DNA of 64,000 bases, taken from NCBI RefSeq assembly GCF_964213995.1, contig NW_027590119.1:2852001-2916000 (forward strand), in the 5' to 3' direction. Below, piece after piece: positions 10,091 through 55,789 of the stretch. The stretch's first letter is position 1, and each line of letters starts with the position of its first letter. The notes under the pieces were generated by a model that worked only from the letters and a program-made list of their open reading frames with translations, was not told the DNA's origin and did no database searches. This stretch comes from Mustelus asterias (taxonomy: Eukaryota). The translations under genes and the position numbers were made by a program.

Positions 10091-10875
10091 CCCCGGCGGA
10101 GGGGCGGGGGGGGGGGGGGGGGGGGGGGGGGAGCAGGGGGGGAAAGAGAAAGATTGAGAGAGAGAGAAAGATTGAGAGAGAAAGAATCCAACCCCTGTAA
10201 TCGCTTGTGAAATTGTTGGTGTCTCTGCAGGTTGGATGACCGATTGAATCCCTTCCCACACACAGAGCAGGTGAATGGTCTCTCCCCGGTGTGAACTCGC
10301 TGCTGTCTCCGCCGTGTGGATGACCTCCTAAACCTCTTTGAGCAGTGAGAGCAGCTAAACGGTCTCTCGTCAGTGTGAATGGGTTGGTGGACCATCAGTT
10401 CCCCAGAGCTTTTGAAGCCACTCTCACAGTCAGAGCATTTAAAGGGTCTGTCTTGGGTGTGAGTGACCTTGTGGCTCAACAGATTGTTCAACCGAGTGAA
10501 TCCCTTCCCACACACAGAGCAGGTGAATGGCCTCTCCCCGGTGTGAACTTGCTGGTGGGTCAACAGATTGTTCAACCGAGAGAATCCTTTCCCACAGTCA
10601 GAGCAGGTGAACGGCCTCTCCCCGGTGTGAATGCGCTGGTGGGTCAGCAGATTGTTTAACCAAGAGAATCCTTTCCCACACACAGAGCAGGTGAACGGTC
10701 TCGCCCCAGTGTGAACTCCCTGGTGTGTTTGTAAATGGTATAACTGAGTGAATCCCTTCCCACACACAGAGCAGGTGAATGGTCTCTCTCCAGTGTGACT
10801 GTGCCGATGAGTTTCCAGTGCAGATGGGAACCTGAATCCTTTCCCACAGTCCCCACATTTACACAATTTCTCCAT
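10084..10875 (-). CDS. C2H2 ZNF (unit 3), 8 fingers (7th lacks first His); native C-terminus lost, reads through into the G/GA tract
   Basis: ATG of MEKLCKC at 10875. Ends HKRLQGLDS|FSLNL.., whereas paralogs continue GLDSTL.DAVNHIQ*. Confidence 0.7.
10091..10185 (+). repeat. Poly-G / GA-rich tract joining two truncated convergent ZNFs
   Basis: About 25 consecutive G, then GAGAAAGATTGAGAGAGA twice. Confidence 0.85.
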
Positions 10876-11639
10876 GGTGCGGGTGTCCTTGTGACTCTCC
10901 AGGCTTGACAATCAGTTCAGTTACAACATAACATGGGTGCGGTCTCTCTGCTGCAATGTATTTTCAGGCTGTTTAACTGGTTAAAGTTCTTTCCACAGTC
11001 ACTCAGGTGTGTGCATGTTTCAGTGTGTGTGTGTCTCGGTGCTTTTCCAGTCACACTGTTTAAAATCTCCTGAAGCAGACAGAGCAGAGAAACATTTCCA
11101 TTCTAGATTCAAAGGTCGATGATATTCAGGTCCCAATGAACTGAGTGACTATGTTAGATTTTGATGTGAAGTTTGGTTTCATATTCGTCTTTAAATTTTC
11201 TGATATCCTGCAAAAGGAATTTACAAAAGTCATCAGTGTCAGTACAGGATAGAAATTCAGAACAGACAATTCTAGTTTCTATGGAACATTCTTTTCTCTC
11301 TCATTCCTCAAAGCTGTAAATCTCCATCCCACACACTCTCCCTCCATTCTCACTCTGCTGTATCTAATATTCACCCTCCCAATTCTCCTGAAGGTGCTGA
11401 TTGAGGCTGATTGACAGATCCATGCTCACTGCTTCCTGTCCTGGACACAGAGAGAGCTGGAAATTTCCATGCAGGCTGCCAGACAGATAACTGTCTACAT
11501 TACTGGAGTAAAAATGTGTGGAATATACAGACCAAATTCACTTCATTCCCTTCAGTTGCTGCAAGTCCCCAATTTTCCCCAGAATGAGGAAAGAAATGGA
11601 AAGGGGGAAACATTGATTTCCTCCCAGATGTTGCCCAGA

Positions 11640-16255: not shown

Positions 16256-16721
16256 GTGGCCTCGCCAGCGATGCCCACATGCCATAAAAGAATGAAAAAA
16301 AGAGAATTGCCTGTTCTGAATTTCACCCTGGTACTGATTTTGTCAACTCCTTTCACAGGATATTAGAAGGTGAGGATCTACAGTCAAAAGTCTCAAACCA
16401 AACGTCACGTCAAGATCTGGCACAGTCACTGAATTCATCAGGAGCTGATTATCATCAGCTTTGGAATCTAGAAGGAGAAATGTCCATCTCTTCTGTTTGT
16501 CCCAAAAGGGTTGAAACGTCAGTGTGATTGGAAAAGCACCGAGACACACACACACCTGAGTGAGAGTGTTCCAGTGCACTGACTGTGGAAAGAGATTTCA
16601 CTTGTTGCACAACCTGGAAAAAACTGCACAATTTGGACCAGGGAGACCGTGCACCTGTTGTGTGTGTGGACAAGTCTTCAACGAATCGTTAAACTTTGAG
16701 AGGCAAAAGGACAGCAGCACC

Positions 16722-17564
16722 ATGGAGAAACCGTGGCAATGTGAGGACTGTGGGAAGAAATGGCGATTCCCGTCTGAGCTGGAAATTCATCGACGCGTTC
16801 ACACTGGAGAGAGGCCGTTTACCTGCTCAGACTGTGGGAAGGGATTTGCTCATTCATGCAACCTGCTGACACATCAGCGAGTTCACAGCGGGGAGAGGCC
16901 ATTCACCTGTTCTGACTGTGGAAAGGGATTCACTCATTTAACCCACCTCCACACACACAAGCGAGTTCACACTGGGGAGAAACCGTTCTCCTGCTCTCAG
17001 TGCGGGAAGGGATTCTCTCAGTTATCCCACCTTCTGAAGCACCAGCGAGTTCATACCAGGGAGAGGCCTTTCACCTGCTCGGAGTGTGGAAAAACATTCA
17101 CTACTTCATGGAACCTGCTGACACACCAGCGAATTCACACTGGGGAGAAGCCATTCACCTGCTGTGCATGTGGGAAGGGGTTCAGTCGGTTATGCAGCCT
17201 GCAGACACACCAGCGAGTTCACACCGGGCAAAAACCATTCACCTGCTCTGAGTGTGAGAAGGGATTCGCTCAGTTATCCCACCTGCTGTCACACCAGCGA
17301 GTTCACACCGGGGAGAGGCCGTTCGTCTGCACCATGTGTGGGAAGGGATTCAGTGAATCATTCACCCTGCTAATACACCAGCGAGTTCACAAGGACGAGA
17401 GGCCATTCACCTGCTCAGAGTGTGGGATGGGATTCACGAAGTCATCCAACCTGCTGACGCACCAACATGTTCACACAGGGGAGAAGCCGTTCACCTGCTC
17501 TGTGTGTGGGAAGGGATACACTCAATTATGCAGCCTGCGCAGGCACCAGAAAGGTCACAAGTGA
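16722..17564 (+). CDS. C2H2 zinc-finger protein, 10 fingers (unit 4)
   Basis: ORF 16560..17564, ATG of MEKPWQC at 16722. Last-exon acceptor TTTCACAG|GATA at 16358/16359. AATAAA at about 17745 and 17977. Confidence 0.9.
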   Translation: MEKPWQCEDCGKKWRFPSELEIHRRVHTGERPFTCSDCGKGFAHSCNLLTHQRVHSGERPFTCSDCGKGFTHLTHLHTHKRVHTGEKPFSCSQCGKGFSQLSHLLKHQRVHTRERPFTCSECGKTFTTSWNLLTHQRIHTGEKPFTCCACGKGFSRLCSLQTHQRVHTGQKPFTCSECEKGFAQLSHLLSHQRVHTGERPFVCTMCGKGFSESFTLLIHQRVHKDERPFTCSECGMGFTKSSNLLTHQHVHTGEKPFTCSVCGKGYTQLCSLRRHQKGHK

Positions 17565-18217
17565 TGACAGATTTTGCTGCTCCTGCTGTTGTTAATCACA
17601 TCCTCGACTGAACCAGGTTCATTGTGATTGTTGGGAGGGTCGGAGGTTTCTTTCTGCTGGACTGACCCGTCTCACAACTTTACTTCCTGTCGGTTTTTGA
17701 GAGTTGTTGCAAGTATATACTTTCAATTTTTATTTACATCACAGAATAAAATGGCGTTTGGAACGTAAAAGATATTTGTTCAAAACTGTTTGGAACTCCC
17801 GAAATCATGATCAAGCTATCCCACTCCCTATCATCCTGGTGTGCTCCATGTGCCTATCCAATAACCGCTTAAATGTTCCTAAAGTGTCTGACTCCACTAT
17901 CACTGCAGGCAGTCCATTCCACACCCCAAAGAGAATTGTTGCAAGTATCTACTTTCATGTTTTATTTGCATCACAGAATAAAATGGTGTTTGGAATGTCA
18001 AAGATATTTGTTCAAAACTGTTTGGAACTCCCGAAATCATGCCAGGTTTCCATGGAGATGGGCTGTGGTGGTTTGAATGTTCTTCTGCTTAATTTCTCTG
18101 GCTGTTTCTCACAGAAGGAAATTGCGAAGCTATAAGGTCTACGTTAGCTGTGATCGAGTGGGACACTACATTAAAATATATGATCTCGACAATTAAGGGC
18201 GAGTATTTAAGGAATGC

Positions 18218-26300: not shown

Positions 26301-26446
26301 CACATGTGTGTGAACTATTCTCTTGTTAGCTTCTGAGTCTGATTTAGAGTCATTTAACTCAATGCTGGTTGTTCAGTCAGTGTCTTAAATGCCTAATGGT
26401 TTAAAATCTTCTCGAACCTACTAGGATTTTTTTCCTTTCCCCAACA
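23318..26446. mobile_element. Solo LTR (about 940 bp net), split by a CR1 insertion, in the 3' UTR of ZNF unit 5
   Basis: TGTT...AACA termini and 5-bp TSD CCCTC (23313-23317 / 26447-26451). The empty site CCGACCCTCCCACTTCAC is present in the paralog at about 55238. Confidence 0.8.
23714..25903 (+). mobile_element. Young 5'-truncated CR1 LINE with nearly intact RT domain
   Basis: 630-aa ORF: [42 protein letters not shown]. One frameshift at about 25565. (TTCTTTG)n tail. Confidence 0.97.
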
Positions 26447-26536
26447 CCCTCCCACTTCACCAACTGTCAGAATGAACATGGTTCAGTCCTGGATGTGATT
26501 AACAGCAGCAATAACAGCAGAACCCAACCCTGGTCA

Positions 26537-27799
26537 TCACTTGTGAACTCGCTGGTGTCTCTGCAGGCTGGATGATGTACTGAATCCCTTCCCACACTGA
26601 GGGCAGGTGAATGGTCTCTCCCCAGTGTGAATTCGCTGGTGTCTCTTCAGGGCATTTGAATGTCTGAATCCCTTGTCACACACAGTGCAGATGAAGGGCC
26701 TCTCCCCAGTGTGAATTCGCTGGTGTCTCTTCAGGCTGCATAACTGAGTGAATCCTTTCCCACAGTCAGAGCAGGTGAACGGTCTCTCCCTGGTGTGAAC
26801 TCGCTGGTGTGTCAGCAGAATGGTTGAGTGAGTGAATCTTTTCCCACAGTCAGAACAAGTGAATGGCCTCTCTCCAGTGTGAACTCGCTGGTGTCTCTGC
26901 AGGTTGGATAACTGAGTGAATCCCTTCCCACACACAGAGCAGTTGTACGGCCTCTCTCCAGTGTGAACTCGCTGGTGTATCCGCAGGTCAGATAACTGAG
27001 TGAATCTCTTCTCACACACAGAGCAGGTGATTGGCTTCTCCCCGGTGTGAACTCGCTGGTGTGTCCTCAGGGTGGATGACCATTTAAATCTCTTTGTGCA
27101 GTGAGAGCAGCTGAACGGTCTCTCCTCAGTGTGAATGCGCTGGTGAATCATCAGATCTGCAGCACTTTTGAAGCCACTTCCACAGTCAGAACATTTAAAG
27201 GGTCTCTCATTGCTGTGAGTGACTTTGTGTGTCAGCAGGTTGGATGAAGTAGTGAATCCCTTCCCACACACACAGCAGGTGAACGGTTTCTCCCCGGTGT
27301 GAACTCGCTGGTGTCTCCGCAGAATGGTTGAGTGAGTGAATCCTTTCCCACAGTCAGAGCAAGTGTACGGCCTCTCCCCAGTGTGAACCCGTTGATGTGT
27401 CCACAGGTCAGATAACTGAGTGAATCCTTTCCCACAGTCAGAGCAGGTGAATGGCTTCTCCCCAGTGTGAACTCGCTGGTGTCTCCGCAGGCTGGATGAC
27501 CATTTAAATCTCTTTGTGCAGTGAGAGCAGCTGAACGGTCTCTCCCCAGTGTGAATGCGCTGGTGGGACATCAGATCCTGTGAGCTTTTGAAGTCACTCC
27601 CACAGTCAGAGCATTTAAAGGGTCTCTCACTGGTGTGAGTGAGATTGTGACTCAGCAGACCGGGTAACTGAGTGAATCCCTTCCCACACACAGAGCAGGT
27701 GAATGGTTTCTCCCCAGTGTGACTGCGTTGATGAGTTTCCAGCTCAGATGGAAACCTGAATCCCTTCCCACAGTCCCCACATTTCCATGGTTTCTCCAT
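26537..27799 (-). CDS. C2H2 zinc-finger protein, 15 fingers (unit 5)
   Basis: ORF 26537..27904, ATG of MEKPWKC at 27799. 420 aa = 15 x 28. Confidence 0.92.
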
Positions 27800-28165
27800 G
27801 GTGCGGGTGTCCTTGTGACTCTCCTGGTTAAAGCTCTTTCCACACTCAGTGCACTGGAACACTCTCACTCCGGTGTGAGTGTGTCTCGGTGCTTTTCTGG
27901 TCACACTGATGTTTAAAATCTTCTGAAGCAGACAGAACAGAGAAGTTTTCTACTTTTGGATTCAAAGGTCGATTATATACATGTCCCAGTGAATTGAGTG
28001 ACTGTCAGATCTTCAGGTGATCTTCAGGAAAAGTTTGAGATTTCTATCTGTAAATCCTCACCCTCTGATATCCTGTAAAAGGAATTTACAAAAGTCATCA
28101 TTGTCGGTGCAGGAGAGAAATTCAGAACAGACTATTTTAGTTTCTATGGAAAATTCTTTTTTCAT

Positions 28166-29162: not shown

Positions 29163-30840
29163 CCTCTTTTTAGGTCAAACCAAAGAAACAAACTCAAGTT
29201 AAGTCAGGACAAAGTAAAAGGGGCAGCTCCCCAAAAGGAGGGGGGGAACAGCCCGAACAAAAATCAAAGTACAAAGGAAACTTAAAAACATCAAATTAAA
29301 ATGTGATTATTAGGGTCGATAACGCACCCCAACCCCTGCGGTGCCCAGCGGGCGCGGAAGGCGTCAACCGCGCCCATGGACACCGCATGCTCCCTCTCCA
29401 GGGACACCTGGCCGCGAACGTAGCCGCGGTAGAGGGGAAGACAGTCAGGATGGACGGCCCCGTCGATCGCCGGCTGCCTGGACCGGTAAATGGCGCGTTT
29501 CGCCAGGAGCAGGTTCACGAGGAGGTCGCCATCCCGACCCTCCCCTCTCCGCACCGGGTGTCCGTAGATCAGGAGCGTGGGACTGAAGTGCAAGCAAAAC
29601 ATTAATAAACGGTTCTTTCGGAAAACAAAAAGGGAGTGCAACCTAAGACACAAAAGAAAGAAATGGTCCACGGACTCCACAAGGCCGCAGAAAGGGCAGT
29701 CTTCGGAGCCCGTGAACCAGTGAATCCTACGGTTGTGCGGCACTGCTGCATGCATCACCCTCCACCCCAGGTCCCCGACGTAATTGGGGGAGATCCCTCC
29801 GTAGAGGGACCTCCGCCGCCCGGCGGCAACAAGGCCCGCCAAGGTGTATCCGGGCGACAGGTGAGGACGCGGTAGTGGAAGGTGTGCAGCAGCAGCCCGC
29901 ACAGGAAACACCTCCGCGCGGTAGAAAAAGGCACGGAGGACATTTCCGTGAGGCGGCTCAGGCTGTGGGGCACCTCACCCAGGGGAGGGGGCTGAGGCTT
30001 TGGGCCAATGTGGAATTCCGCCCGAACAGGGGAACGCTCGGGCGGGATCCCACCGCACGCCTGCGCCGTCTCGAGTTTGCGTGCAGTTTCGGGGCCGAGC
30101 ACGACCGTCCTAAGGTCTAGGATGGCTTTGGCCGCGCGCCAGACGGATGTCCCAACGCGCTCAGCCAGCACGCGGGGACTCATCCAGCCCGCTCCTCCGC
30201 CATCGAGCACGTCCCCGATTCTGGTCACCCCGGCGTCCACAGCCCCCCTCTCCGCCAGCCACCTGAAGTCATACGGCTGGAGGAGCGGATTCCTGAGCAG
30301 CGGCTCTCGCACGAGAGCCGCTACTCCTGACGGGGGAGAGCTGCGTCGCGAGGCGACCTTGTTCCAGACAGTGAGGAGGTCCTGGTAAAAGACGGGCAAC
30401 TCCTGCAGGGTGGTCGAAGCACGCCCCAGTTCGATATGCAGGGGCTGCAAGTCATAACTCAGGCCGTGCCACTGGCGGAAGAAATACGTCGCCATGGCAC
30501 ACCACTGTGGAGGGGGCTCAACGTAAAGGTACCTCTGCAGGGCCTGGAGGCGGAAGGTCGCTATCTGAATGCGGAGGCACACCAGACCTTGTTCGCCCTC
30601 CTCAAGCGGTAGATGCAGAACCACGGCAGGGACCCAGTGCAGTCGATTGTCCCAGAAGAACCGCAGGAGGGTTCTCTGGATATTGGCAACATGCTACCAA
30701 ATAAACCTGTTGGACTTTAACCTGGTGTTGTGAGACTTCTTACTGTACTGGCAACAAAGCCAGGGGGAGGGGTCAAAGGGACCAGCCGGTACCACAGCAT
30801 GGAGGCGAGCAACTGGTTTATGACGAGAACTCGTGCCCGT
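29163..30840 (-). mobile_element. Tx1-clade LINE, 5'-truncated ORF2 3' part plus 3' UTR
   Basis: RVLVINQL..SMLWY, FFW..LHW..VLHLPLEEG.QGL, CPFCGLVESVDHFFLLC zinc knuckle, LAKRAIYRSR, FRARW. One frameshift at about 29800. 3' UTR ends AAAAAGAG. Confidence 0.9.
30692..30748 (+). mobile_element. 57-bp Penelope terminal fragment inserted in Tx1
   Basis: CCAAATAAACCTGTTGGACTTTAACCTGGTGTTGTGAGACTTCTTACTGT flanked by TGGCAACA (30684-30691 / 30749-30756). Confidence 0.8.
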
Positions 30841-31165
30841 GAATGGTCACAAACACTCACCTCTGAAACAATTTAACTGATTTTAATATTAAAATCTCCT
30901 GCTGGAGCCTGCAGCTGGAAAGATATCAGAAGCATTGGCATCAGAGAAAAATCTCCCAGTTGAGGAAATCCCCGGGGAGCGGGGGTGATGTCACTGTGCA
31001 ATTTTAAGTATGTAATGAGATCACAGACAGGAACACAGAATACCTGGGTCTGTGCAAACCAGTGATCACCACACACATTATGGAGGATGTGAGGCTCCTT
31101 GACAGGGTGCAGAGGAGATTTATCAAAATGGTTTCAGGGATGAGGAATTATAGTTACAATGTTAG

Positions 31166-31460
31166 TGTGGTGAACCATCGTTGGTTCACCACTGGGGTTT
31201 GTTACCATGTTACTGTTGGGCTAGGGTGTTATTACTGTGGGGGTTGTACTATGTTGTTGGGTTAGGGTGTTTACCTGTTATAAGTGTTACCATGGCACAT
31301 TCCAGTGGGGTCCCGCCTCCGGTGGCAGGGTATAAGACCCCCTGCTCCGGCAGGACCCCTTCAGTCTGAACTGGTGTATTCGTGTTAGTAGTTTCATTGT
31401 TACTGTATTAAAGCCTTCAATACTAAAGCCTTGATTCCATGTGCTCATTGACGCGCATCA
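31166..31460 (+). repeat. 5' LTR
   Basis: TGTGGTGAACC...GCGCATCA. TATAAG at about 31331, ATTAAA at about 31407. Confidence 0.97.
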
Positions 31461-31483
31461 ATTTAATACAGTAAACAGAGAGT

Positions 31484-34400
31484 ATGGAACAGATTCTAAA
31501 ACCGGATCGTCTGACACTGGACCCACGTGCGGTCGGTGCAGCTAACACATTCGACCATTGGTGGAAGTGCTTTGAGGACTACCTGGCAGCCTCGGTAGCT
31601 ATCACTACGGACAGTGATAGACTCCAGGTCCTCCACGCGAGGGTAAGCGACACGATTTACCTAGCCATTCGTGCAGCTCCCACTTACCAGGGTGCCGTCG
31701 AGCTCCTAAAGAATAGGTACATTACGCCACCCAACGAGATACATGCTCGTTACCTCCTCGCTACACGACGTCGGCAGTCAGGCGAAACCATAGAGGATTA
31801 TGCCAATGAGCTCCTGCAGCTTGCCAGGGGTTGCGACTGTAAGGACGTCTCCGCCGAGCAGTACATGTACGACCTCGCCCGAGACGCGTTCGTAGCAGGG
31901 GTAGGGTCCTCGTACATCAGGCTTAAATTACTAGAAAAGGGGAAACTCAACTTGACCCAGGCAATGGGGATGGCCGCGAGGTTGGAGGCGGCGTCGAAGA
32001 GCTTGGCGCTGTACCCCGAGGACCACGTGCAGTCAACGTGGTTGGAGCAAGCTCTGCTCCCTCCTCGCCCCGCGAACCCGCGCTCCCAGATCGATTCGAC
32101 GACGGCGGCAGCTCCAGGTGGCCAGCGATGCTATTTTTGCGGTGGGGCCAAGCATCCACGGAAACAGTGTCCGGCAAGAACGGCAATCTGCAGCCAGTGC
32201 GGTAAAAAAGGCCACTACGGCAAAGTCTGTAGGTCCAGACCTAAAAACGGCAGTGCAGTTTGTAACCCTCCAGAACGGAGACCATCTCTTTCGGCGTTGC
32301 AGTACCCACGAGGTCCGACCACGTGCGATCTCAGGACGGCGCCATCGTGGCAAACAGAGGAGGAGGAAGACCACCAGGAGTCGCTGCGCTTGGCGCCCTC
32401 GCCCACGTGCGATTCATGGGGGCGGCCATCATGGTCCACGACGACTAGGAGCGACCAGCAGGGGTCCTCAGCATCCACATCGGCAGCATGCAGTGACGCC
32501 CAGGGGCCAACGGTGGCGTCGATCTCTCTGGACCAGACCAGGCATTACAGACTGGAACATTCTATGATGGAGGTAAAGGTTAGTGGCAGAACTGTGAATT
32601 GTCTGTTTGACAGTGGGAGCACCGAAAGTTTCATACACCCTGAAACTGCTAAAAGGTGTGGACTCCGGATTCTCCCTGCCAAACAGACAATTTCCATGGC
32701 ATCACAGTCCCGGTCTGTACCGATCCAAGGACGATGTATGGTAACTCTTGAGGTACAGGGCACAGTTTACGAGCAATTCAGGCTCCTTGTGCTACCTCAC
32801 CTTTGCGCGCCAATTATCCTCGGACTAAACTTTATGGTCCACATGAAGAGTGTGATCCTACAGTACGGTGGGCCACTCCCTTCACTGGCAGTAGGGAACC
32901 AGCCGCAGCCTCCAAATTGCCCAAAGCGCCCCGCGTGCAATCTATCCATCCTGAAGATCACGACACCATCCCTTTTTAAAAATCTGGTACCTGGCTGCAA
33001 GCCCATCGCTACTAAAAGTAGGCGTTACAGCGCTGAGGACCGGATCTTTATTAGATCTGAGGTTCAGCGGCTCCTCAAGGAAGGGATCATACAGGCCAGT
33101 GCTAGTCCGTGGAGAGCGCAGGTCGTGGTAGTCAAAAGCGGGAACAAACCTCGGATGGTCATCGACTATAGTCAGACCATTAATAGATACACGCAGCTGG
33201 ATGCGTATCCTCTCCCGCGCATTTCTGATATGGTCAATCAGATTGCGCAGTACCGAGTGTTTTCTACCATAGACCTTAAGTCCGCCTACCATCAACTCCC
33301 CATCCGCCCAGAGGACCGACAATATACGGCCTTTGAGGCGGATGGTCGTCTATACCAATTCCTCAGGGTTCCATTTGGTGTCACCAATGGGGTCTCGGTC
33401 TTCCAGCGTGCTATGGACCGAATGGCGGACCAGAATGGGTTGCGGGCTACCTTCCCGTACCTGGATAACGTCACCATCTGCGGCCATGACCAGCAGGACC
33501 ACGACACGAATCTCCAACACTTTCTGCGCGCTGCATCTCGCCTGAATCTGACCTATAACAGGGAGAAGTGCGTATTCCGTACGCGTAAGTTAGCCATTAG
33601 GGCGGCACGGTAGCACAGTGGTTAGCACTGCTGCTTCACAGCTCCAGGGTCCCGGGTTCGATTCCCGGCTCGGGTCACTGTCTGTGTGGAGTTTGCACAT
33701 TCTCCTCGTGTCTGCGTGGGTTTCCTCCGGGTGCTCCGGTTTCCTCCCACAGTCCAAAGATGTGCGGGTTAGGTTGATTGGCCAGGTTAAAAAATTGCCC
33801 CTTAGAGTCCTGGGATGTGTAGGTTAGAGGGATTAGCGGGTAAAATATGTGGGGGTAGGGCCTGGGTGGGATTGTGGTCGGTGCAGACTCGATGGGCCGA
33901 ATGGCCTCCTTCTGCACTGTAGGGTTTCTATGATTTCTTTCTATGATCCTCGGATACGTGGTGGAAAACGGGGTCATTGGCCCTGATCCAGACCGTATGC
34001 GCCCACTCACTGAACTTCCCTTGCCCGCTAGCACGAAAGCACTGAGGAGATGCCTCGGGTTCTTTTCGTATTATGCACAGTGGGTCCCCAACTACGCGGA
34101 CAAAGCTCGTCCGCTCATTAAGTCCACGACCTTCCCACTTACGCCGGAGGCCCAATTGGCCTTCAAGGTTTTGAAAAGCGACATCTCGAAAGCCACGATG
34201 CACGCGGTGGATGAATCCATCCCTTTCCAGGTGGAGAGTGATGCATCTGACTTCGCCCTAGCCGCCACACTAAACCAGGCAGGCAGGCCCGTCGCGTTTT
34301 TTTCCCGCACCCTTCAAGGCCCAGAGATTCGGCACTCAGCGGTGGAAAAGGAGGCTCAGGCCATTGTGGAGGCAGTCAGACACTGGCGCCATTACCTGGC

Positions 34401-35829
34401 AGGTAAGCGGTTCACCCTGATCACGGATCAACGATCCGTGGCGTTTATGTTCAATAACACGCAGAGGGGCAAGATCAAGAACGATAAGATCTTGCGGTGG
34501 AGAATTGAGCTCTCCACCTATAATTACGATATTATGTATCGTCCAGGGAAGCTCAATGAGCCCTCGGATGCCCTCTCGCGCGGAACATGCGCCATCATGC
34601 AGGAGGACCGCTTGAAGGCTCTCCACAATGATCTGTGTCATCCTGGAGTCACCAGACTCTACCACTTCATCAAAGCCCGCAACCTGCCCTACTCGGTGGA
34701 GGAGGTCAGGTCAGTAACTAGAAGCTGTCGGATTTGCGCAGAATGCAAACCACACTTTTATCGACCAGACCGGGCACATTTGGTCAAGGCCACTCGCCCT
34801 TTTGAGAGGCTGAGTGTGGATTTTAAGGGCCCCCTTCCCTCAACGGACCGGAATGTCTATTTTCTCAATATAATAGACGAATATTCCCGGTTTCCGTTTG
34901 TTTTCCCCTGTGCGGACACGTCAACTGCCACCGTCATCAAGGTTTTCAGTGAACTTTTTACCCTGTTCGGGTACCCCTGCTATATTCATAGCGACAGGGG
35001 CTCGTCGTTCATGAGCAACGACTTGAGGCAATTCCTGCTCTCATTCGGGATTGCCTCTAGTAGAACCACGAGCTACAACCCTAGGGGTAACGGACAGGTG
35101 GAAAGGGAGAATGCTACAGTCTGGAAGGCTGTCCTACTGGCATTGAAATCCAGGGGCCTTCCAGTCTCCCGTTGGCAGGAGGTCCTTCCAAATGCGCTCC
35201 ATTCTATCCGCTCCCTCCTGTGTACGGCAACCAATGCTACTCCCCACGAGAGGATGTTCTCATTCCCTCGGAAGTCGTCCTCGGGGACCTCATTGCCAGC
35301 CTGGTTGACGTACCCAGGACCCGTCCTTCTGCGGCGCCATGTGAGGGCTCGCAAGTCCGACCCCTTGGTCGAACCGGTCCAACTCCTCCACGCCAACCCT
35401 CAGTATGCCTATGTGGCATATCCTGACGGGCGAGAGGACACTGTCTCCATTAGAGACCTGGCGCCCGCAGGGGACGTAGCAACCCCTGTCGCTCCTATTC
35501 CCCCAGTCACAAATCCACTACTCCTCATTACTTCCCCAGACGTGGCGCGGTCAGCACCGGGACCAGTGCATAACACTTTTACTCCCATGTACAGCTTGCC
35601 TGAGACTCGGAGATCGGCGCCACCATCATCACCACCACCACCACTACCACCAAACGTTCCAGGATCCCCTGCACCATCGCCTCACCAGGGCCGGCCGGCC
35701 CGGGAGTCCTTGAAGGGACAGCCACACGTTACTTGGAGAGAACCACTACAAGCACCTGATCCGGTTTCGCAACCGGTGTTGAGGAGATCGCAGCGTCGGT
35801 GCGGTCCTCCAGACCGTCTGGACTTGTGA
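31484..35829 (+). pseudogene. gag-pol polyprotein (1331 aa when the SINE is removed), disrupted in RT
   Basis: Double CCHC knuckle CYFCG..H..CPA..CSQC.K.GH..C, protease LFDSGS, RT IDLKSAY / PFG / YLDN, RNase H ESDAS, integrase HHCC and D,D,E. Deleting 33598-33947 restores KLAILGY in frame. Confidence 0.95.
33598..33947 (+). mobile_element. HE1-like V-SINE inserted in Gypsy RT
   Basis: Full head, core and tail. Only a 2-bp AT duplication or microhomology. Confidence 0.95.
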
Positions 35830-35901
35830 ATCCTGTGATTTTTTTTTGTTATTGTCTGTTTTCGTCCACCCCGCCACCTTTTGTCTTAAAGGAGGGGTGA
35901 A

Positions 35902-36196
35902 TGTGGTGAACCATCGTTGGTTCACCACTGGGGTTTGTTACCATGTTACTGTTGGGCTAGGGTGTTATTACTGTGGGGGTTGTACTATGTTGTTGGGTTA
36001 GGGTGTTTACCTGTTATAAGTGTTACCATGGCACATTCCAGTGGGGTCCCGCCTCCGGTGGCAGGGTATAAGACCCCCTGCTCCGGCAGGACCCCTTCAG
36101 TCTGAACTGGTGTATTCGTGTTAGTAGTTTCATTGTTACTGTATTAAAGCCTTCAATACTAAAGCCTTGATTCCATGTGCTCATTGACGCGCATCA
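35902..36196 (+). repeat. 3' LTR
   Basis: No differences from the 5' LTR seen by eye. Identical ORF translation in the track. Confidence 0.97.
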
Positions 36197-36539
36197 GTTA
36201 GGCTGGATAACTTGGGGTTGTTCTCCTTGGAGCAAAGTAGATTGATAGAGGTGTACAAGGGTACGTGGAGGTGTCAAAGTTTACATGCTCTGTTTACACG
36301 TGTACAAGCTCTGTCTATGGGTCATCCAGTCTCAAAACGTTGGTTGTATTCTCTCTCCACAGATGCTGTCAGATCTGCTGAGATTTTCCAGCATTTACTG
36401 TTTTTATTTTCCTTTCTTTTTCCTTCTCTGCTACCGCTCTGCCTCATCAATAAGACATTGGGACTCAGGGTTGATGCAGTTTGATGGACAAGTTGTCTCC
36501 ATTCTGAACACTGGGGAACAAGCCCCTCCCACTGATTGA

Positions 36540-36980: not shown

Positions 36981-37051
36981 CCAATAATAACAGGAAGAAG
37001 TTTAACAACACCAGGTTAAAGTCCAACAGGTCTATTTGGTAGCAAACGTCA

Positions 37052-37088
37052 CACAAGCTTTCGGAGCCTCAAGCCCCTTCTTCAGGTG
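37052..37088 (-). ncRNA. Minimal hammerhead ribozyme motif
   Basis: Minus strand CAC CTGAAGA A GGGGC ttgag GCTCC GAAA GCT T GTG. Confidence 0.7.
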
Positions 37089-38279
37089 AGTGGGAATTCT
37101 GTTCACAAACAGGGCATATAAAGACATAGACTCAATTTACAGAATAATGGTTGGAATGCGAATCCTTGCAGCTAATCAAGTCTTAAAGGTACAAACAATG
37201 TGAGTGGAGAGCTTCCACTCTAAACACGTTAAAGAAGCCATCCCCGACGGACAAGCCCTCCGTATACACAGGATCTGCTCGGATGAGGAGGATCGCAACA
37301 GACACCTCCAGATGCTGAAAGATGCCCTCATAAGAACAGGATATAGCGCTCAACTCATCGATCGACAGTTCCGACGCGCCACAGCGAAAAACCGCACCGA
37401 CCTCCTCAGAAGACAAACACGGGACAAGGTGGACAGAGTACCCTTCGTCGTCCAGTACTTCATCGGAGCGGAGAAGCTACGGCATCTCCTCTGGAGCCTT
37501 CAACATGTCATTGATGAAGACGAACATCTCGCCAAGGCCATCCCCACACCCCCACTTCTTGCCTTCAAACAACCACACAACCTCAAACAGACCATTGTCC
37601 GCAGCAAACTACCCAGCCTTCAGGAGAACAGTGACCAAGACACCACACAACCCTGCCACAGCAACCTCTGCAAGACGTGCCGGATCATCGACACAGATGC
37701 CATCATCTCACGTGAGAACACCATCCACCAGGTACACGGTACATACTCTTGCAACTCGGCCAACGTTGTCTACCTGATACGCTGCAGGAAAGTATGTCCC
37801 GAGGCATGGTACATTGGGGAAACCATGCAGACACTGCGACAACGGATGAATGAACATCGCTCGACAATCACCAGGCAAGACTGTTCTCTTCCTGTTGGGG
37901 AGCACTTGAGCGGTCACGGGCATTCAGCCTCTGATCTTCGGGTAAGCGTTCTCCAAGGCTGCCTTCACGACACATGACAGCGCAGAGTCGCTGAGCAGAA
38001 ACTGATAGCCAAGTTCCGCACACGAGGACGGCCTCAACCGGGATATTGGGTTCATGACACACTATCTGTACTCCCCACAGCTTGCCTGGACTTGCAGAGT
38101 CTCACTGGCTGTCCTGTCTGGAGACAATACACATCTCTTTAGCCTGTCTTGATGCTCTCTCCACTCGCATTGTTTGTACCTTTAAGACTTGATTAGCTGT
38201 AAGTATTCGCATTCCAACCACTATTCTGTAAATTGAGTTTGTGTCTTTATATGCCCTGTTTGTGAACAGAATTCCCACT

Positions 38280-38316
38280 CACCTGAAGAAGGAGCTTAAG
38301 GCTCCGAAAGCTTGTG
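38280..38316 (+). ncRNA. Minimal hammerhead ribozyme motif
   Basis: CAC CTGAAGA A GGAGC ttaag GCTCC GAAA GCT T GTG. Confidence 0.75.
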
Positions 38317-40529
38317 GCTTTTTCTACCAAATAAACCTGTTGGACTTTAACCTGGTGTTGTTAAACTTCTTACTGTGTTTACCCCAGTCCAACGCCGGCA
38401 TCTCCACATTAGCAATAACAGAGTCTCAGTGTAACAATGACACACACAGGCTCCAATACAATCAGAGTGGAGATGGGGCACAGAGACAACACAGCAAAGC
38501 ACTGACTTACTCTGAGTGTAACAAATACAATGTTTGTTCAAATAATAAGAGTCACGTTGCAGTATGTTAGCGAACACAGCATTGGATCCAATGTAATGGT
38601 AATACAGTCAGTATCTCGTGCACCATAACCAAAGTTTCGGTTTCATTTGATAGTGTGAGTGAGTCATGGTCTATTGATATAATGTATTTAGATTCCGGTG
38701 TGTGTTACTCTGCCACTGTCATTATAAGACAATAGCCTGTCTGTTATTCCAATTCTGCTGTATTCTACAACTGCAGTTTCAGTGTCTCTGAGGTCATTTT
38801 AACTGCAGGTAATCTGACATTAATGGAGACAAGAGGCCCAACAAACATTTGATTATAATAGGAGGACAAAGTGTAAGGGAACAATGATATTTTAAGGTGT
38901 CTGTGTTGTGGTGAGTGTCACTGGGAGGTGAGTGATAAAATACAAGTGGAAACATCATGACAGAGACATGTGACTGACTCGGCCTGACTGAGAGCTGTTA
39001 TACTCGAGGCGAGAATAATGAGGACATGGGGAACTCCAGGGATTTCTGATATCTGAGGTGTATCTGTTAGAGGAACTGAAAATAATCAGTTCTTCCTCAT
39101 GGTTATCTCCAGTTCTCAAGTTACACAGACACACAGGAAAGAGATCTGACAGCTCATCAAACCCAATATTTTAATCTTCTGTTTGAGACACATTATAATC
39201 GAAAAGATCAAATATTAAAACCTGAGGAGAGAAACATTCAGAATGTCACAAGGATGAGTGAACTGTCTAATTAATCCCATTCACCATAACTTTGCCAATT
39301 TATCCTCTGCAAGTATTTATCCAATTCCCTTTGAAAGCTACTATCAAACTTGCTTCTAGCACCTGTCAGTTAGTGCATTCCAGATCATATGAAATTATTG
39401 TGTAACAAATTCTCCTTATCACCCCCTCCAGTTCTGTTGTCAATTAAATTAAATCTCTGTGTCCTCTGCTTACAGACCTTCCTGCACGGAGGAAATCGAT
39501 TCTCTCCATCGACAAACCCTCGTGCTCCTGGGAGATAATTTCTCTCCATTGACACTATCATAAATTATTTGTCATTTTAAACACCTCTATTAAATCTCCC
39601 AGCACATTCCCCAACCTAAGATGGATAACCCATGTTTCTCCTGCCCTGAAGAATTATATGGACTCAAAATGTTAACTCTGAACAGATGCCGCTGGACCTG
39701 CCGGGTTTTTCTGCTTTTCTCCCTGTCATTCCTTCCATAATCAATCAGAAACTCTTCATGATTTTGAACATCTTGATCAAATAGGAACAATCAGACCCTG
39801 AGAAAGATACAGAGGGAGAGACAGAAAGAAAAATTGAGAGATTTTAAAAAGCAGAAAGATGAGGTGGTCAAAGATAAAAGCTGAGAAACAGAGGAAACAA
39901 GCAATACAGAGAGAATGCTCTGTATGTAAGGGAGCAGGCTATCAGTTCCCAGCTGTGGGGAGCACAGGGAACTCAGTAACTGATCCACAGACACAGCTGG
40001 TTATATCTGCGAATGGAAACTCTGAACAGAAATAACTGGCTCATTTGTAAATGTCACCACAATGTGACCTGTGTGCCTCTGCCCTGACTCTGTGGACAGA
40101 TATAGGCCGCATTGACAGATGTTCTCACCAGATTGTGGTCCCTGGATTTATTTTCTGCTCAGAAGTGAGATGTGCGTTTTTGAACCGGCAGCAGAGAAAC
40201 AGGAAGTTGTGTTACCTGAGAATGAAACAGCCGGCGTCAGTTTGATGTTATCACCGTGAACAGTCTTCCTGCCTGTGAGGGTGAACTCACTCTGACAGCA
40301 TCAAGAACAACCACACAGATTGCTGCCGCTCTCAGCATTACATTCACCTCCATTCCCATTTTAAACAATGAAGAAAGGAGATTATTTGGATTTTTAACAC
40401 ATTCACTGAATTGGGAGATGGACTGAGGGTCATCACTGGGAGAAATGAGGAGGAATTAGAGAACAAATGAGTTTTCCCAAAGAGGGTTATTAGAAAAGAG
40501 GAGATTTAAAGTGAGTCAGGGCCTGTCAG

Positions 40530-41199: not shown

Positions 41200-44100
41200 T
41201 GGGAATCAAATTGTTGTCTAATTGTCCCAGCAGTTAACAGGCTCCTTTGAACGTCTCCAGCTGCTACTTTGATGCAGACTTCAACCAATTTATTTTAAGC
41301 CAGTTTCTGTTCAATAAACCAGGACTGACACACACACACATTAAAATGTTTTAGACTTTTTTGCATTTTTAGTCTGGAAACCTAAACCTGCCGTTTCACT
41401 CTCAGTCAGGAATAGATCCCAGTTTTACACCAATCTTTGACAGCACGTTTCCAGCATTCACCATTGTTCTTCCTAACTCTAAACACAGTTGTAAAAGAGC
41501 TTCTGTTCCGTGTCTCGGAGCTCGGAACCATGGAAAAGAACGACTGGGACACATTTCTCACACACCTCAGGATTCACCCACACGGGGACTTTGCTGTCAG
41601 TGAAAAGTGACGAAAAAGACCAAAGTGCTGTTTGTCCCTCTCAGCGAGACCCTGAAGGACTGGGTCAAGAATGAAGTTCTGTTCCTACTGTGTGACCCTC
41701 CCTCAGATTGCCCTTTCTGAGCTCCAGCCTGGTGACGTTAAACACTCAAATGAAAAAGACAAAAATCTACAACAATGATTCAATCAAATGTCTATTTCAC
41801 ATTTATTCAGAATATCAAACCTCAACAGAAGAAAAAAGTCAGAGTGAAGATGATTCAGACCTGGATATGATTAACAGCATCGATAAGTGTAGAATCCAAA
41901 CCTTGCAGTCGTTTGTGAACTCGCCGGTGTGTTAGCAGGTGGGATGACTGAACAAATCCCTTTCCACAGACATTACAGGTGAACGGCCTCTCCCCAGTGT
42001 GAACTCGCTGGTGTTTCAGAAGATAAGAGAAATGAGAAAATCCCTTCCCACAGACAGAGCAGGTAAATGGCCTCTCCCCACTGTGAACTCTCTGATGTGT
42101 CAGCAGGTTGGATGACTGACTGAATCCCTTCCCACACATGGAGCAGGTGAACGGCCTCTCCCCAGTGTGAACTCGCTGGTGATTCAATAGGTTGGATGAA
42201 CGAGTGAATCCCTTCCCACATACGGAGCAAGTGAATGGCCTCTCCTCACTGTGAACCTGCTGCTGTGTCAGAAGGTTGTATGAACGGGTGAATCCCTTCC
42301 CACATTCAGAGCAGGTGAACGGTCGATCCCCTGTGTGGAGTTGCTGGTGTATCAGAAGGTTGGATGAATTAATGAATCCCTTCCCACAGTCTGAGCAGGT
42401 GAAGGGCCTCTCCCTAGTGTGAATTCTCTGGTGGTTCAATAGGGCAGATGGACGGCTGAATCCCTTCCCACACACACAGCAGGTGAATGGCCTCTCCCCA
42501 GTGTGAGTATATTGGTGCGTCAGCAGATCTTTTTTATTTTTAAAGCTCTTCTCACAGTGGGAACAATTAAAAAGTTTGTTATCAGAGTGAACAAGTTGAT
42601 GTGTCTGCAAGTGGGATGACTGAATGAATCCTTTCCCACACACACAGCAGGTGAACGGTCTCTCCCCAGTGTGAATACGTTGGTGCGTCAGCAGATCTTT
42701 TTTGCATTTAAAACTCTTCCCACAGTCAGAACATGGAGACAGTCTCTCATCAGTGTGAACAAGTTGGTGTGTCACAATGTGGGATGAGCGAGTGAATCCC
42801 TTCCCACACACAGGGCAGGTGAACGGCCTCTCCCCAGTGTGAACCCGTTGGTGAGTCAGAAGGTTGTATGAATGGGTGAATCCCTTCCCACAAACAGAGC
42901 AGGTGAACGGTCTCTCCCCAGTGTGACTGCGCTGATGAACTTCCAGTTGTGATGGGAAACTGATTCCTTTCCCACAATCCACACATTTCCACTGTTTCTC
43001 CATGGTGCTGGTGCCCTTGTGTTTCTCCAGGTTGGATGATCAGTTCAAGCCTCATCCACACACACAACATACACGTAGTTTCACCCTGCTGTGAACTGTG
43101 ATTTTTTTTCAGGCTGTGTAACTGGTTAAAGCTCTTTCCACAGTCGGTTCACTGGAACACTCTCACTCGGGTGTGTGTTTGTCCTGCTGCTTTTCTGGTC
43201 ACACTGATGTTTAATTTCTTTGCCCACAGGCAGAACAGACAAATATTGCTCCTTCCATATTCAAAGACCGATCATATTCAGCTCCGAAGGAACTGAATGA
43301 CTTTGTCAGATGTGATGTTCGGTTTGAGTTTTCTGTCTGCCATTCCTTCACTTTGAATATCCTGTAAAAACAGTTTAGAAAAGTCATCACTGTCAGAACA
43401 GGATAGAAACTCTGAACAATTCTAGTCTTTCTGGAACATTTTTTCCTTTCTTGTTCCCCCAAATCTGTAAATCTCCGTCCCACACACTCTCCCTCCTCCT
43501 TGGGCTGAAATCCAAACCCATCTCACCATTTCTTTCCTCCACTCCCAGTTTTCTCCCTCCCTCTCCTCTGTCTGGGTTCAGTTCTCCAGCTCCTGTCTGT
43601 AGACTGACAATAAAACCAATGGGTCTTATTGGGGGTGTTGGGGCCTCCAGCGGGTGTTTGTGAATCCTCCCCGCCCACCTCCCAGGGTTTCCTTCCTTCC
43701 CAGAGATCAGAGTCCTCATTGATTTGAGGCCAAAGTGTAACCTCTTATTTATTGTCCCCCTCCCCCATCCTCTGATGTGAACCATCCTCCAGTGGCTGAG
43801 CCAGGATGGGGCCGTTAACCTGGGCCTGTTCCCGGGAGGGAGGGAGGGAGAAGCCCCGCAGCTGCAAACCAGGGAGCTGACAATGATTCTGAAGGGTTTG
43901 CGGATCCACAAAGTGTTTCCAAATCCTCCCAGCCACCGCCTAACGCTGACTCCGCTTCTCCGGGACAAACAAGCGCCAAGGACAGCAATGACACTGCGCA
44001 TGCTCCACATCACAATGCCCGGGGACTGATTGACGGCAGCTCCGGACCAATAGGAAGAGGGGGCGGGACTGGAGGACCGAGCGGGAGCGGCTGGTCCTCC

Positions 44101-45430: not shown

Positions 45431-46339
45431 TGATTGACAGATCCATGCTCACTGCTTCTTGCCCTGGATGCAGAGAGCTGAAAATTTCCATGCAGGCTGC
45501 CAGACAAATAAATGTCTACATTACTGGAGTAAAAATGTGTGGAATATACAGACCGAATTCACTTCACTCCCTTCAGTTGCTGCAAGTCCCCAATTTCCCC
45601 AGAATGAGAAAAGAAATGGAAAGGGGGAAACATTGATTTCCTCCCAGATGTTGTCCAGAAGAGGAAGTTTCAATCTGAAGCTCATTGGACAACTTCCGCA
45701 TTGTGACGTCACAATGGAGCCTGCCTGAATCAGCGAATAGGAATCTCTCTTCCGACATCAAGAGCTGATGTTTCTTGTCTCGATGACCCTTTGTCAAAGC
45801 TCTGAAACATCAGTTCTTTTCTCTCCATACAGATGCTGCCAGACCTGCTGAGAATGGGGAGACAGTGTGTGGGATGGAGATTTACAGCTTTTGGGGAATG
45901 AGAGAGGCAAGAATGTTCCATAGAAATTGTCTGTTCTGAATTTCTATGCTGTACTGACACTGATGACTTTTGTAAACTCGTTTTACAGGATATTGAAAGA
46001 GGAATCACAGGCCGAAATCTCAAACGTCATGTCTAGACGTGACAGAGTCATATTCCTTGGGACCTCAATATCATCGGACTTTGAATCCAGAAGGAGAAAT
46101 GATTGTCCAGTCTGTCGATTTGAAAAGATTTGAAATGTCAGTGTGAGTGAAAAAGCATCAACACACTGCCACACTTGAGTGAGAGTGTTCCAATGCACTG
46201 ACTAAAGAGCTTTAACCAGTTACACAGTCTGAATAAATATCACACCATTCACAGCGGGGAGAGACTGTAATCTTGTTCTGAGTGTGGGCGAAGTTTCAAC
46301 TAATTGTCCAGTCAAGAGAGAGGTAAGGACACCTGCACC

Positions 46340-47518
46340 ATGGAGAAACCATGGAAATGTGGGGACTGTGGGAAGGGATACAGAGCCCCATCTAAGCTGG
46401 AAGCTCATCGACGCAGCCACACTGGGGAGAGACCATTCACCTGCTCTCAATGTGGGAAGGGATTCACTCGATTATCCCTCCTGCAGAGACACCAGCGAGT
46501 TCACACTGGAGAGAGGCCATTTTCCTGCTCTCAATGTGAGAAGGGATTCAGTCAGTTATCCGACCTGCAGAGACACCAGCGAGTTCACACTGGGGAGAGG
46601 CCGTTCACCTGCTCTCAGTGTGGGAAGGGATTCACTCAATTATCCACCCTGCGGACACATGAACGAGTTCACACTGGGGAGAGGCCATTCACCTGCTCTC
46701 AGTGTGGGAAAGGATTCATTCTGTTATCCAGCCTGCGGATACACCAGCGAGTTCACACTGGGGAGAAACCATTCACCTGCTCTCAGTGTGGGAAGGGATT
46801 CATTCAGTTATCCAGCTTGCAGAAACACCAGCAAGTTCACACAGGAGAGAGGCCGTTCACCTGCTCTCAGTGTGGGAAGGGATTCATTCTGTTATCCCTC
46901 CTGCAGAGACACCAACGAGTTCACACTGGGGAGAGGCCATTCAACTGTTCTCAGTGTGGGAAGGGATTCACGAACTCATCCATCCTGCGGACACACGAAC
47001 GAGTTCACACTGGGGAGAGACCGTTCACCTGCTCTCAGTGTGGGAAGAGATTCACTCAGTCAGCCGACCTGCAGAGACACCAGCTACGTCACACAAGGGA
47101 GAGGCCGTTCACCTGCTCTCAGTGTGGGAAGGGATTCATTCTGTTATCCAGCCTGCGAATACACCAGCGAGTTCACACTGGGGAGAAACCATTCATCTGC
47201 TCTCAGTGTGGGAAGGGATTCACTAACTCATCTGATCTGCGGACACACCAGCGAGTTCACACAGGGGAGAGGCCGTTCACCTGCTCTCAGTGTGGGAAGG
47301 GATTCACTCAGTCATCCCACCTGCAGAGACACCAGCGAGTTCACACTGGGGAGAGACCATTCAACTGTTCTCAGTGTGGGAAGGGATTCACTCAGTCATC
47401 CAACTTGCAGACACACCAGCGAGTTCACACTGGGGAGAGGCCATTCACCTGCTCTCAGTGTGGGAAGGGATTCAGAGTTTCATCCCACCTGCTGAGACAC
47501 CAGCGAGTTCACGAGTGA
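46340..47518 (+). CDS. C2H2 zinc-finger protein, 14 fingers (unit 7)
   Basis: ORF 46304..47518, ATG of MEKPWKC at 46340. Fingers 2-14 all start CSQC. Confidence 0.92.
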
Positions 47519-47744
47519 TTCCAGAGGTTGGATTCTGCTGTTATTGTTTCTGCTCTCAATTACATCCAGGACTGCATTTTGTTCATTCTCACAGTTGGTC
47601 AATGGGGAGGGTCGGAGGGTTTCTTTCTGCTGGACTGGCCGGTCTCATGACTTTGCCTCCAGTGGGCTGATGCTCTTTGAGTCTTGTTGCGAATACCTGG
47701 TTTTTAGATTTCACACGGATCACAGAGTGACAGGGTGTTAGGAA

Positions 47745-55330: not shown

Positions 55331-55789
<459 letters not shown>

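What the first reader, a model, noticed from the sequence alone, without database searches (positions are those of the whole stretch)
31398..31483. Gypsy element lacks a tRNA PBS and has a self-complementary one
Seen: after the 5' LTR comes ATTTAATACAGTAAAC, with no TGG. 31462-31474 (TTTAATACAGTAA) is the exact reverse complement of LTR 31400-31412 (TTACTGTATTAAA), extendable by 2 bp with a bulge. The partner overlaps the ATTAAA poly(A)-like signal, and gag starts only 23 nt after the LTR. Known: Tf1/sushi-type elements self-prime from their own 5' end. Inference: self-priming, and/or masking of the 5' LTR poly(A) signal, in a Mag-like lineage.
Basis: partly seen in the sequence, partly recalled or inferred. 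Interest (0 to 1): 0.7.

Follow-up and report, generated by a model that had tools for sequence, protein, structure and literature searches.

The report
Animal Gypsy clade primes from itself
This jumping gene and dozens of related families have no tRNA docking site; the spot where DNA copying must begin pairs exactly with a stretch of the element's own end-repeat, and the two change together, so the group likely starts copying with a piece of its own RNA.

Summary
Observation confirmed. A young Ty3/Gypsy element (identical 295-nt LTRs, 5-bp TSD) has, 1 nt after the 5' LTR, 13 nt complementary to LTR 31400-31412, ending on ATTAAA; no TGG. The pairing is clade-wide: 41 of 50 testable relatives from other organisms show an arm of 11 nt or more, in 40 different sequences. 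Four near-identical sister subfamilies in this genome differ by matched double changes, and PBS-only searches predicted the LTR allele in 16 of 16 and 58 of 64 copies. Mag-like elements of the same genome use TGG and show no pairing. One integrated aberrant copy (L436) reads LTR + A + antisense RNA starting exactly at the ATTAAA end, as expected if that end is the primer. Best reading: self-priming (about 0.75-0.8), inferred, not tested biochemically. It differs from Tf1: no chromodomain, predicted start 37 nt upstream of the primer, no pretzel third duplex. Poly(A) masking is at most a second role (27 of 40 arms). Mag membership is not supported. This scan noted the same clade before on other genomes; ten paper searches found no description.

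The parts
31161..31165 (+). left target-site duplication (GTTAG)
   Evidence: same 5 nt at 36197-36201
31166..31460 (+). 5' LTR, 295 nt, TG...CA
   Evidence: identical to 35902-36196
31331..31336 (+). TATA-like box
   Evidence: same spacing to the initiator in 11 of 11 own-genome families
31361..31366 (+). initiator-like motif; predicted transcription start 31363 (not measured)
   Evidence: 32 nt after TATA; no RNA data
31400..31412 (+). PBS partner, predicted self-primer; its last 6 nt (31407-31412) are the ATTAAA poly(A)-like signal
   Evidence: exact reverse complement of 31462-31474; covaries with the PBS
31413..31416 (+). conserved (G/A)CCT right after the partner; predicted cut/trim boundary and start of a weak second stem
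   Evidence: C at +2 in 33 and at +3 in 34 of 38 families; pairing 0.56 vs 0.33 in shuffled loops
31461..31461 (+). 1-nt spacer between LTR end and PBS
   Evidence: offset 1 in 73 of the 77 loci with a match of 11 nt or more
31462..31474 (+). primer-binding site without TGG
   Evidence: 0 of 81 loci with TSD-defined ends have TGG in the first 8 nt
31484..33613 (+). gag (two CCHC-type knuckles seen in the sequence), protease and RT, first part of the single gag-pol frame
33600..33945 (+). SINE-like insertion that interrupts the pol frame of this copy (approximate ends; resemblance to shark HE1-type SINEs is recalled, not tested)
   Evidence: sister copies have one frame of about 1334 codons
33934..35829 (+). 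RNase H and integrase, no chromodomain
35888..35901 (+). polypurine tract
   Evidence: same motif in own-genome relatives
35902..36196 (+). 3' LTR; holds the second copy of the partner at 36136-36148, with no PBS behind it
36197..36201 (+). right target-site duplication

Best explanation
The 13 nt after the 5' LTR are the primer-binding site of a chromodomain-less animal Gypsy clade, they pair with the element's own LTR stretch ending in ATTAAA, and that stretch likely serves as the primer for minus-strand DNA synthesis in place of a tRNA. Shown: position 1 nt after the LTR, absence of TGG, clade-wide complementarity, matched changes between sister subfamilies. Inferred steps: (1) the RNA is predicted to start near 31363; (2) the 5' R copy would fold onto the PBS over a 49-nt loop during transcription, which would also hide the 5' poly(A) signal in families that have one there; (3) the RNA would be cut between AUUAAA and GCC, probably by the element's RNase H as in Tf1, leaving a roughly 50-nt capped fragment whose last 13 nt prime; (4) the 48-nt strong-stop DNA would jump to the 3' end using the short overlap between GCC and the poly(A) site; (5) the plus strand likely copies the primer, so that a single LTR change can be carried into the PBS. 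Odds: self-priming in some form 0.75-0.8; of that, the 5' R copy as primer about 0.5 and the 3' R copy about 0.25 (see first rival).
For: Own genome: five further families keep the rule with different middle letters; 77 of 81 loci with TSD-defined ends have a match of 11-19 nt, 73 at offset 1, none with TGG (81 of 167 loci examined, some the same insertion fetched twice). Other organisms: 41 of 50 loci with enough DNA before gag have a perfect arm of 11 nt or more, 43 of 50 beat at least 98 of 100 shuffles; 40 distinct duplex sequences in all. Close pairs differ by one matched double change among 9 substitutions in 890 nt (L308/L314) and 10 in 810 nt (L101/L108). One pair position occurs as G-C, T-A and C-G in 61, 68 and 27 copies; 175 of 187 sister insertions are perfect (sample partly chosen by PBS pattern). 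Blind tests on copies chosen by PBS alone: 16 of 16 carry the predicted LTR allele; 58 of 64 match their 5' LTR, 3 more match their 3' LTR. Control: 8 Mag-like elements with LTR pairs give matches of only 4-6 nt, and 8 of 10 regions show TGG after the LTR. L436, a 1202-nt unit with a 5-bp TSD, is LTR + A + antisense copy beginning exactly at the ATTAAA end; it is the only match of 20 nt or more among 279 junctions scanned. Precedent: Tf1 cuts its own RNA with RNase H to make the primer (PMC7175516, passages).
Against: No biochemical or RNA evidence; start, poly(A) site and cut are all predicted. The Tf1 third duplex is absent (3 of 38 families at q<=0.05, mean z 0.07), and TATA/initiator motifs are not consistent outside this genome. 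Step 5 is weak: PBS-only swaps to a sister allele (5 of 180 copies at the variable position against 2 of 1476 site-copies elsewhere; the script counted 4 and missed L424) could be gene conversion, since sister-allele swaps between the two LTRs of one copy run at 0.5-0.8% per polymorphic site and about 5% at 31327-31328. Ty1 and Ty3 do not inherit the PBS from their primer (PMC5371799, passages). L436 can also arise by a template switch on the 13-nt homology without any primer copying, and it runs on past the predicted start into U3 and the PPT, which a 50-nt primer explains only with an extra jump.
Confidence: 0.72

Rival explanations
1. Self-priming by the 3' end: the 3' R copy of the partner, cut or trimmed back to AUUAAA, anneals to the PBS of the same or the co-packaged RNA, so the genome is held end-to-PBS, the 5' R stays whole and strong-stop DNA spans the full R.
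For: In L436 the antisense part continues from ATTAAA through R, U3, the PPT and the 3' internal region, which is what the plus strand would copy if the primer were still attached to the genome. The last two primer positions are A in 37 of 38 families, as expected of a trimmed A-rich end. The partner allele is most tightly linked to U5 markers (Cramer V 0.99, 0.95).
Against: The local 49-nt hairpin should form first and occupy the PBS (inference; pair probabilities). The linkage is dominated by clonal structure (V 0.91 to a U3 marker too) and no clean recombinants were found. An earlier AI note (e1-8032551, untested) reports a 49-nt over-copy ending at the transcript start, which fits a short capped primer.
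Confidence: 0.25
2. The hairpin only hides the 5' poly(A) signal (or controls gag translation); priming is by something else.
For: 27 of 40 arms contain AATAAA or ATTAAA; the signal lies downstream of the predicted start and so needs suppression in the 5' LTR; only the 5' copy has the PBS behind it.
Against: 13 of 40 arms lack the hexamer, L113, L121 and L126 have nothing like it, L091 has AATAAA 26 nt downstream. Masking does not need the arm to start 1 nt after the LTR end (73 of 77), and it leaves the element without any primer site.
Confidence: 0.1
3. A host RNA (tRNA half, snRNA, other small RNA) is the primer and the LTR match is secondary.
For: Half-tRNA and other unusual primers exist in LTR elements (PMC6317226 section 13; PMC10886601 passages). 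My tRNA set was small.
Against: The PBS takes 40 different sequences and tracks the LTR base for base, including four alleles among subfamilies 1-8% apart. Best match to 35 distinct own-genome tRNA sequences was 5 nt in mature-length genes (only 10 anticodon types, and the set also lacked the partner of the TGG control, so this test is weak).
Confidence: 0.03

Closest known systems
Tf1/Tf2 (Schizosaccharomyces pombe), Tj1, Tosmo1-3 and the Tf1/sushi group of chromoviruses
   Same: Ty3/Gypsy; no tRNA PBS; PBS just behind the 5' LTR complementary to an LTR stretch; self-priming shown for Tf1 (PMC7175516, PMC4600332, bioRxiv 10.1101/2022.12.06.519325; passages).
   Different: Tf1 uses the first 11 nt of its RNA, needs a three-duplex 'pretzel' and has a chromodomain. 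Here the partner is predicted at +38 to +50, usually ends on a poly(A)-like hexamer, the third duplex is not found and no chromodomain is found.
Tcn1 clade (Gypsy) and TAR/Houba/Osr-1 (Copia) of plants
   Same: Self-priming predicted by the same test: 10 bp or more of complementarity starting 0-5 bp after the 5' LTR (PMC6317226, passages and section 13). This element passes that test.
   Different: Plant lineages; Tcn1 is a chromovirus, TAR a Copia. That paper states plant non-chromoviruses use tRNAs.
Mag lineage (A/B/C clades)
   Same: Short LTRs, 5-bp TSD in this element, single gag-pol frame, CCHC gag, weak gag similarity (25-29% to P0012, P0013).
   Different: RT 31-38% identical, separate side of a long branch; Mag-like copies in this genome have a TGG site and no self-pairing.
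Skipper (Dictyostelium) and fungal GalEa elements
   Same: Also lack the TGG signature (PMC5006619, PMC6934838; passages).
   Different: Skipper has a polypyrimidine stretch with no LTR complement; GalEa has an internal hairpin; neither pairs PBS with R as here.

Membership tests
Ty3/Gypsy LTR retrotransposon | LTR pair TG...CA with TSD, PPT, order gag-PR-RT-RH-IN | tested here: met
   best PDB match of relative P0005 is Ty3 Gag-Pol
Tf1/sushi group | PBS complementary to own LTR, 10 bp or more, starting 0-5 bp after the LTR, no TGG | tested here: met
Tf1/sushi group | chromodomain at the integrase C-terminus | tested here: not met
   no chromo family hit in the window copy or in 8 clade proteins at E<=0.1
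Tf1/sushi group | self-primer is the first nucleotides of the RNA | tested here: inconclusive
   motifs place the start 36-41 nt upstream of the partner in 11 of 11 own-genome families; start not measured
Tf1/sushi group | three-duplex pretzel structure | tested here: not met
   PBS-downstream/U5 duplex no better than shuffles; only a weak stem after the partner
Tf1/sushi group | RNase H-dependent cleavage makes the primer | not testable with these tools
   needs biochemistry
Tf1/sushi group | RT groups with named chromoviruses | not testable with these tools
   no named reference sequence could be obtained; the DUF4939 search for own-genome chromoviruses found nothing
Mag lineage | RT groups with Mag elements | tested here: inconclusive
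   separate from Mag-like sequences (31-38% identity, SH-aLRT 99, quick tree with long-branch warning), but that outgroup is labelled Mag from recall and no other clades were in the tree
Mag lineage | tRNA-type PBS as in the Mag-like copies of this genome | tested here: not met
CsRN1 clade | LTR end motifs TGTGGYG ... MSYYAMA (PMC3601003 Table 3) | tested here: inconclusive
   5' end fits, 3' end does not, and foreign clade members start differently
MolGy/PolGy clades of molluscs and annelids | RT/RH placement with named members | not testable with these tools
   no sequences found in searchable supplements; papers do not mention PBS

The most novel reading that the evidence does not exclude
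A large animal Gypsy clade evolved tRNA-free priming independently of Tf1, using the RNA end at its own poly(A) signal, possibly the 3' end of the genome itself, as primer; the plus strand copies that primer back into the PBS, so primer and PBS drift together as a private, fast-changing code that distinguishes subfamilies and escapes host repressors aimed at fixed tRNA sites.
Probability: 0.25. Interest if true: 0.85.

Novelty: new variant of a known kind. Interest (0 to 1): 0.6.

Why it matters
Self-priming has been shown only for Tf1 and is treated as a mark of the Tf1/sushi chromoviruses plus one plant Copia lineage. A widespread chromodomain-less animal clade (named relatives in sharks, rays, corals, a damselfly, a crab and a nematode) with a different geometry would be a further origin of tRNA-free reverse transcription, joining poly(A) control and priming in 13 nt. 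A PBS that is not tied to a host tRNA can change freely, which bears on how hosts silence elements through the PBS (3' tRNA fragments; PMC7472051, search listing only). The young family here gives a rare natural series of compensatory alleles and a fossil of the primer junction, which make the mechanism testable from RNA and cDNA ends.

Tried and rejected
IMG/VR scan: no relatives. Rfam: nothing meaningful over the element; no tRNA gene in the window. DUF4939 search for chromovirus controls: nothing. Pattern was built with wrong spacing and gave 2 irrelevant matches. Clade naming through supplements failed (3 files of PMC8556966 and 1 of PMC6238403 were not searchable and may hold the alignments); the Atlas gave only generic gag clusters. 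Linkage of the partner with U3 versus U5 markers, meant to tell 5' from 3' primer, was inconclusive. The U3 difference between the two halves of L436 was rejected as evidence of two RNAs because 31327-31328 switches on its own in about 11 of 120 copies. PBS-only swaps were first read as proof of primer copying and downgraded after the conversion control. The rate comparison (30 of 30 changes matched, 23% vs 13% in flanks) is biased, since families were chosen for perfect, distinct duplexes, and is not used. The tree is the quick one; two rows labelled 'self' (L213, L215) had not shown the duplex. Levin 1995, Lin and Levin 1997, Atwood-Moore 2006 and Esnault and Levin 2015 were not held; Butler 2001 was not looked up. 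Repbase reports could not be searched.

Full report
1. Observation. The element runs from 31166 to 36196 with identical 295-nt LTRs, a 5-bp TSD and a PPT. Pfam gives protease, RT, RNase H and integrase in Gypsy order; a SINE-like insert at about 33600-33945 interrupts pol in this copy. After the 5' LTR come one A and 13 nt that are the exact reverse complement of 31400-31412; 2 of 5000 LTR shuffles reach that length. The partner ends on ATTAAA; gag starts 23 nt after the LTR. The overall fold energy is not unusual; the signal is the exact arm and its place.

2. Family. The genome (G000, 3.68 Gb; closest named proteins are from sharks and rays) holds many near-identical copies: 382 match a 26-place junction pattern, 98 match the window's own subfamily pattern. 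Searches with distant proteins gave further families. Of 167 loci examined, 81 had LTR ends fixed by a TSD, 26 had an LTR pair without one and the rest had no pair; among the 81 (some are the same insertion fetched twice, a few have a mis-called end) none has TGG in the first 8 nt, 77 have a match of 11-19 nt to their own LTR and 73 of these start 1 nt after the LTR.

3. Clade. From 87 metagenome and genome-bin loci, 53 had a gag start and 50 enough DNA upstream; 41 of 50 have a perfect arm of 11 nt or more and 43 of 50 beat at least 98 of 100 shuffles. Own and foreign loci together give 40 distinct duplexes; 27 contain AATAAA or ATTAAA, 32 are followed by (R)CC. In 38 undamaged families the last two arm positions are A in 37. 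RT identity to the window ranges from 44 to 99%. Control: of 10 Mag-like regions from the same genome, 8 have LTR pairs with matches of 4-6 nt, and 8 show TGG after the LTR, 1 CGG, 1 nothing. The quick RT tree puts the 34 clade rows and the 11 Mag-like rows on two sides of one long branch (SH-aLRT 99; long-branch warning; no named references).

4. Compensation at fine scale. Sister subfamilies 1-8% apart carry four duplex alleles (68, 61, 27 and 19 perfect copies; 175 of 187 perfect). L308/L314 and L101/L108 differ by 9 and 10 substitutions, two of which form a matched pair. A search on the PBS alone turned up an unexpected allele in 16 copies, and all 16 carry the complementary LTR base. Of 64 more copies chosen by PBS alone, 58 match their 5' LTR, 3 have a change in the 5' LTR only, 2 have a sister PBS allele against both LTRs, and 1 is the aberrant L436. 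In the first 100 of 382 listed junctions the four neighbouring free positions never vary (counted by hand).

5. Is the PBS copied from the primer? Six copies have a sister subfamily's PBS base against their own LTR (L328, L333, L359, L391, L424, L437). In the set not chosen for the variant this is 5 of 180 at that position against 2 of 1476 site-copies elsewhere (plus L424); genome-wide, 2 of about 100 copies of the window's subfamily have it and both carry the sister base. But sister-allele swaps also occur between the two LTRs of a copy at 0.5-0.8% per polymorphic site, against 0.14% at other sites, and about 5% at one hot site, so gene conversion is a live explanation, and L359/L391 could be ordinary recombinants. 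Ty1 and Ty3 do not take their PBS from the primer (PMC5371799, passages). I count this as suggestive only.

6. L436. An earlier AI note on an over-copied primer (e1-8032551) led me to scan all held loci; 1 of 279 junctions has a match over 19 nt. L436 is a 1202-nt unit with the same 5 nt on both sides: a full LTR, one A, then 907 nt of antisense copy that starts exactly at the ATTAAA end and runs through R, U3, PPT and 3' internal sequence with several jumps, then the 5' leader, PBS and a short U5 end. It is what a plus strand would give if it ran from U5 into a primer that ends at AUUAAA. It fits a 3'-end primer directly, a short 5' primer with one extra jump, or a template switch on the 13-nt homology. 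It is one copy.

7. Geometry against Tf1. Tf1 primes with the first 11 nt after RNase H cleavage (PMC7175516, passages), needs a three-duplex structure and has a chromodomain (bioRxiv 10.1101/2022.12.06.519325, passages). Here TATA lies 68-74 nt and an initiator 36-41 nt upstream of the partner in 11 of 11 own-genome families, even with unrelated U3; the 29 foreign families show no consistent motif. The duplex between sequence after the PBS and U5 is no better than shuffled. The 5 nt after the partner are paired somewhat more than in shuffled loops (0.56 vs 0.33; families are not independent). No chromodomain in 9 sequences scanned.

8. Mechanism. Best: self-priming with the primer's 3' end at AUUAAA|GCC (0.75-0.8), more likely from the 5' R copy because the local hairpin should form first; the 3' R copy is the main rival. 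Masking of the 5' poly(A) signal is a plausible second role in about two thirds of families. A host RNA is very unlikely given the base-for-base tracking; the direct tRNA test was weak.

9. Literature. Ten searches returned self-priming only for Tf1/sushi, Tcn1 and plant TAR Copia. Read as passages: PMC6317226 (also section 13), PMC3601003, PMC10886601, PMC2836005, PMC6934838, PMC5006619, PMC8556966, PMC6238403, PMC7175516, PMC2864245, PMC11117352, PMC4600332, PMC5341516, PMC5371799, bioRxiv 10.1101/2022.12.06.519325; supplements searched by term for PMC8556966, PMC6238403, PMC11117352; listing only for PMC7472051. The primary Tf1 papers, Butler 2001 and Repbase entries were not seen, so prior description is not excluded. 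This scan reported the same clade signature before on other genomes; I had reached the reading before that call and tested it on different DNA.

10. Verdict. Real feature; new variant of a known kind; works like Tf1 self-priming but is not a Tf1/sushi member by two tested features, and is not shown to be Mag. Interest 0.6; 0.85 if the 3'-end primer with PBS rewriting holds.

Noticed in passing
L436 (G000:C2:151521581-151526901), first 1520 nt: Integrated 1202-nt aberrant cDNA with 5-bp TSD: LTR + A + antisense copy from the ATTAAA end; right end is a palindrome that recreates a CA attachment end.
   Followed up: yes
window 31327-31328 (U3, just before TATA): A two-base swap differs between the two LTRs of one copy in about 11 of 120 copies with no neighbouring marker changing; quasi-palindrome hot spot or short gene conversion.
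   Followed up: partly
window 31475-31483 versus L308, L314, L380: The 23-nt leader looks like a deletion between two short AAACAGA repeats of the longer (about 55-65 nt) leader of sister subfamilies.
   Followed up: partly
window 31277 region; L092, L101, L104, L138: A TTACCT-type motif recurs in LTRs upstream of the partner in distant families (reverse complement of a splice-donor-like sequence); role unknown.
   Followed up: no
window 31171-31193 (LTR 5' end): Short inverted repeat at the LTR start (GGTGAACC...GGTTCACC), seen as a self-match.
   Followed up: no
window 1800-2800, 10200-10970, 16640-17660, 26420-27850, 41790-43040, 46220-47610, 55250-55640, 61450-62470: The element sits in a cluster of C2H2 zinc-finger genes on both strands (84-nt repeats; Pfam on one).
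   Followed up: partly
window 29291-30693 (-) and 36990-38410: Neighbouring decayed non-LTR/Penelope-like fragments; no Pfam hit for the two frames tested; identity recalled, not shown.
   Followed up: partly
L211-L217: Clade members occur in contigs of bacterial genome bins, most likely host DNA carried into the bins.
   Followed up: no
L201-L209: Old Mag-like family with a TGG-type PBS (recalled as matching tRNA-Ser; not confirmed, that tRNA was not in the set).
   Followed up: partly
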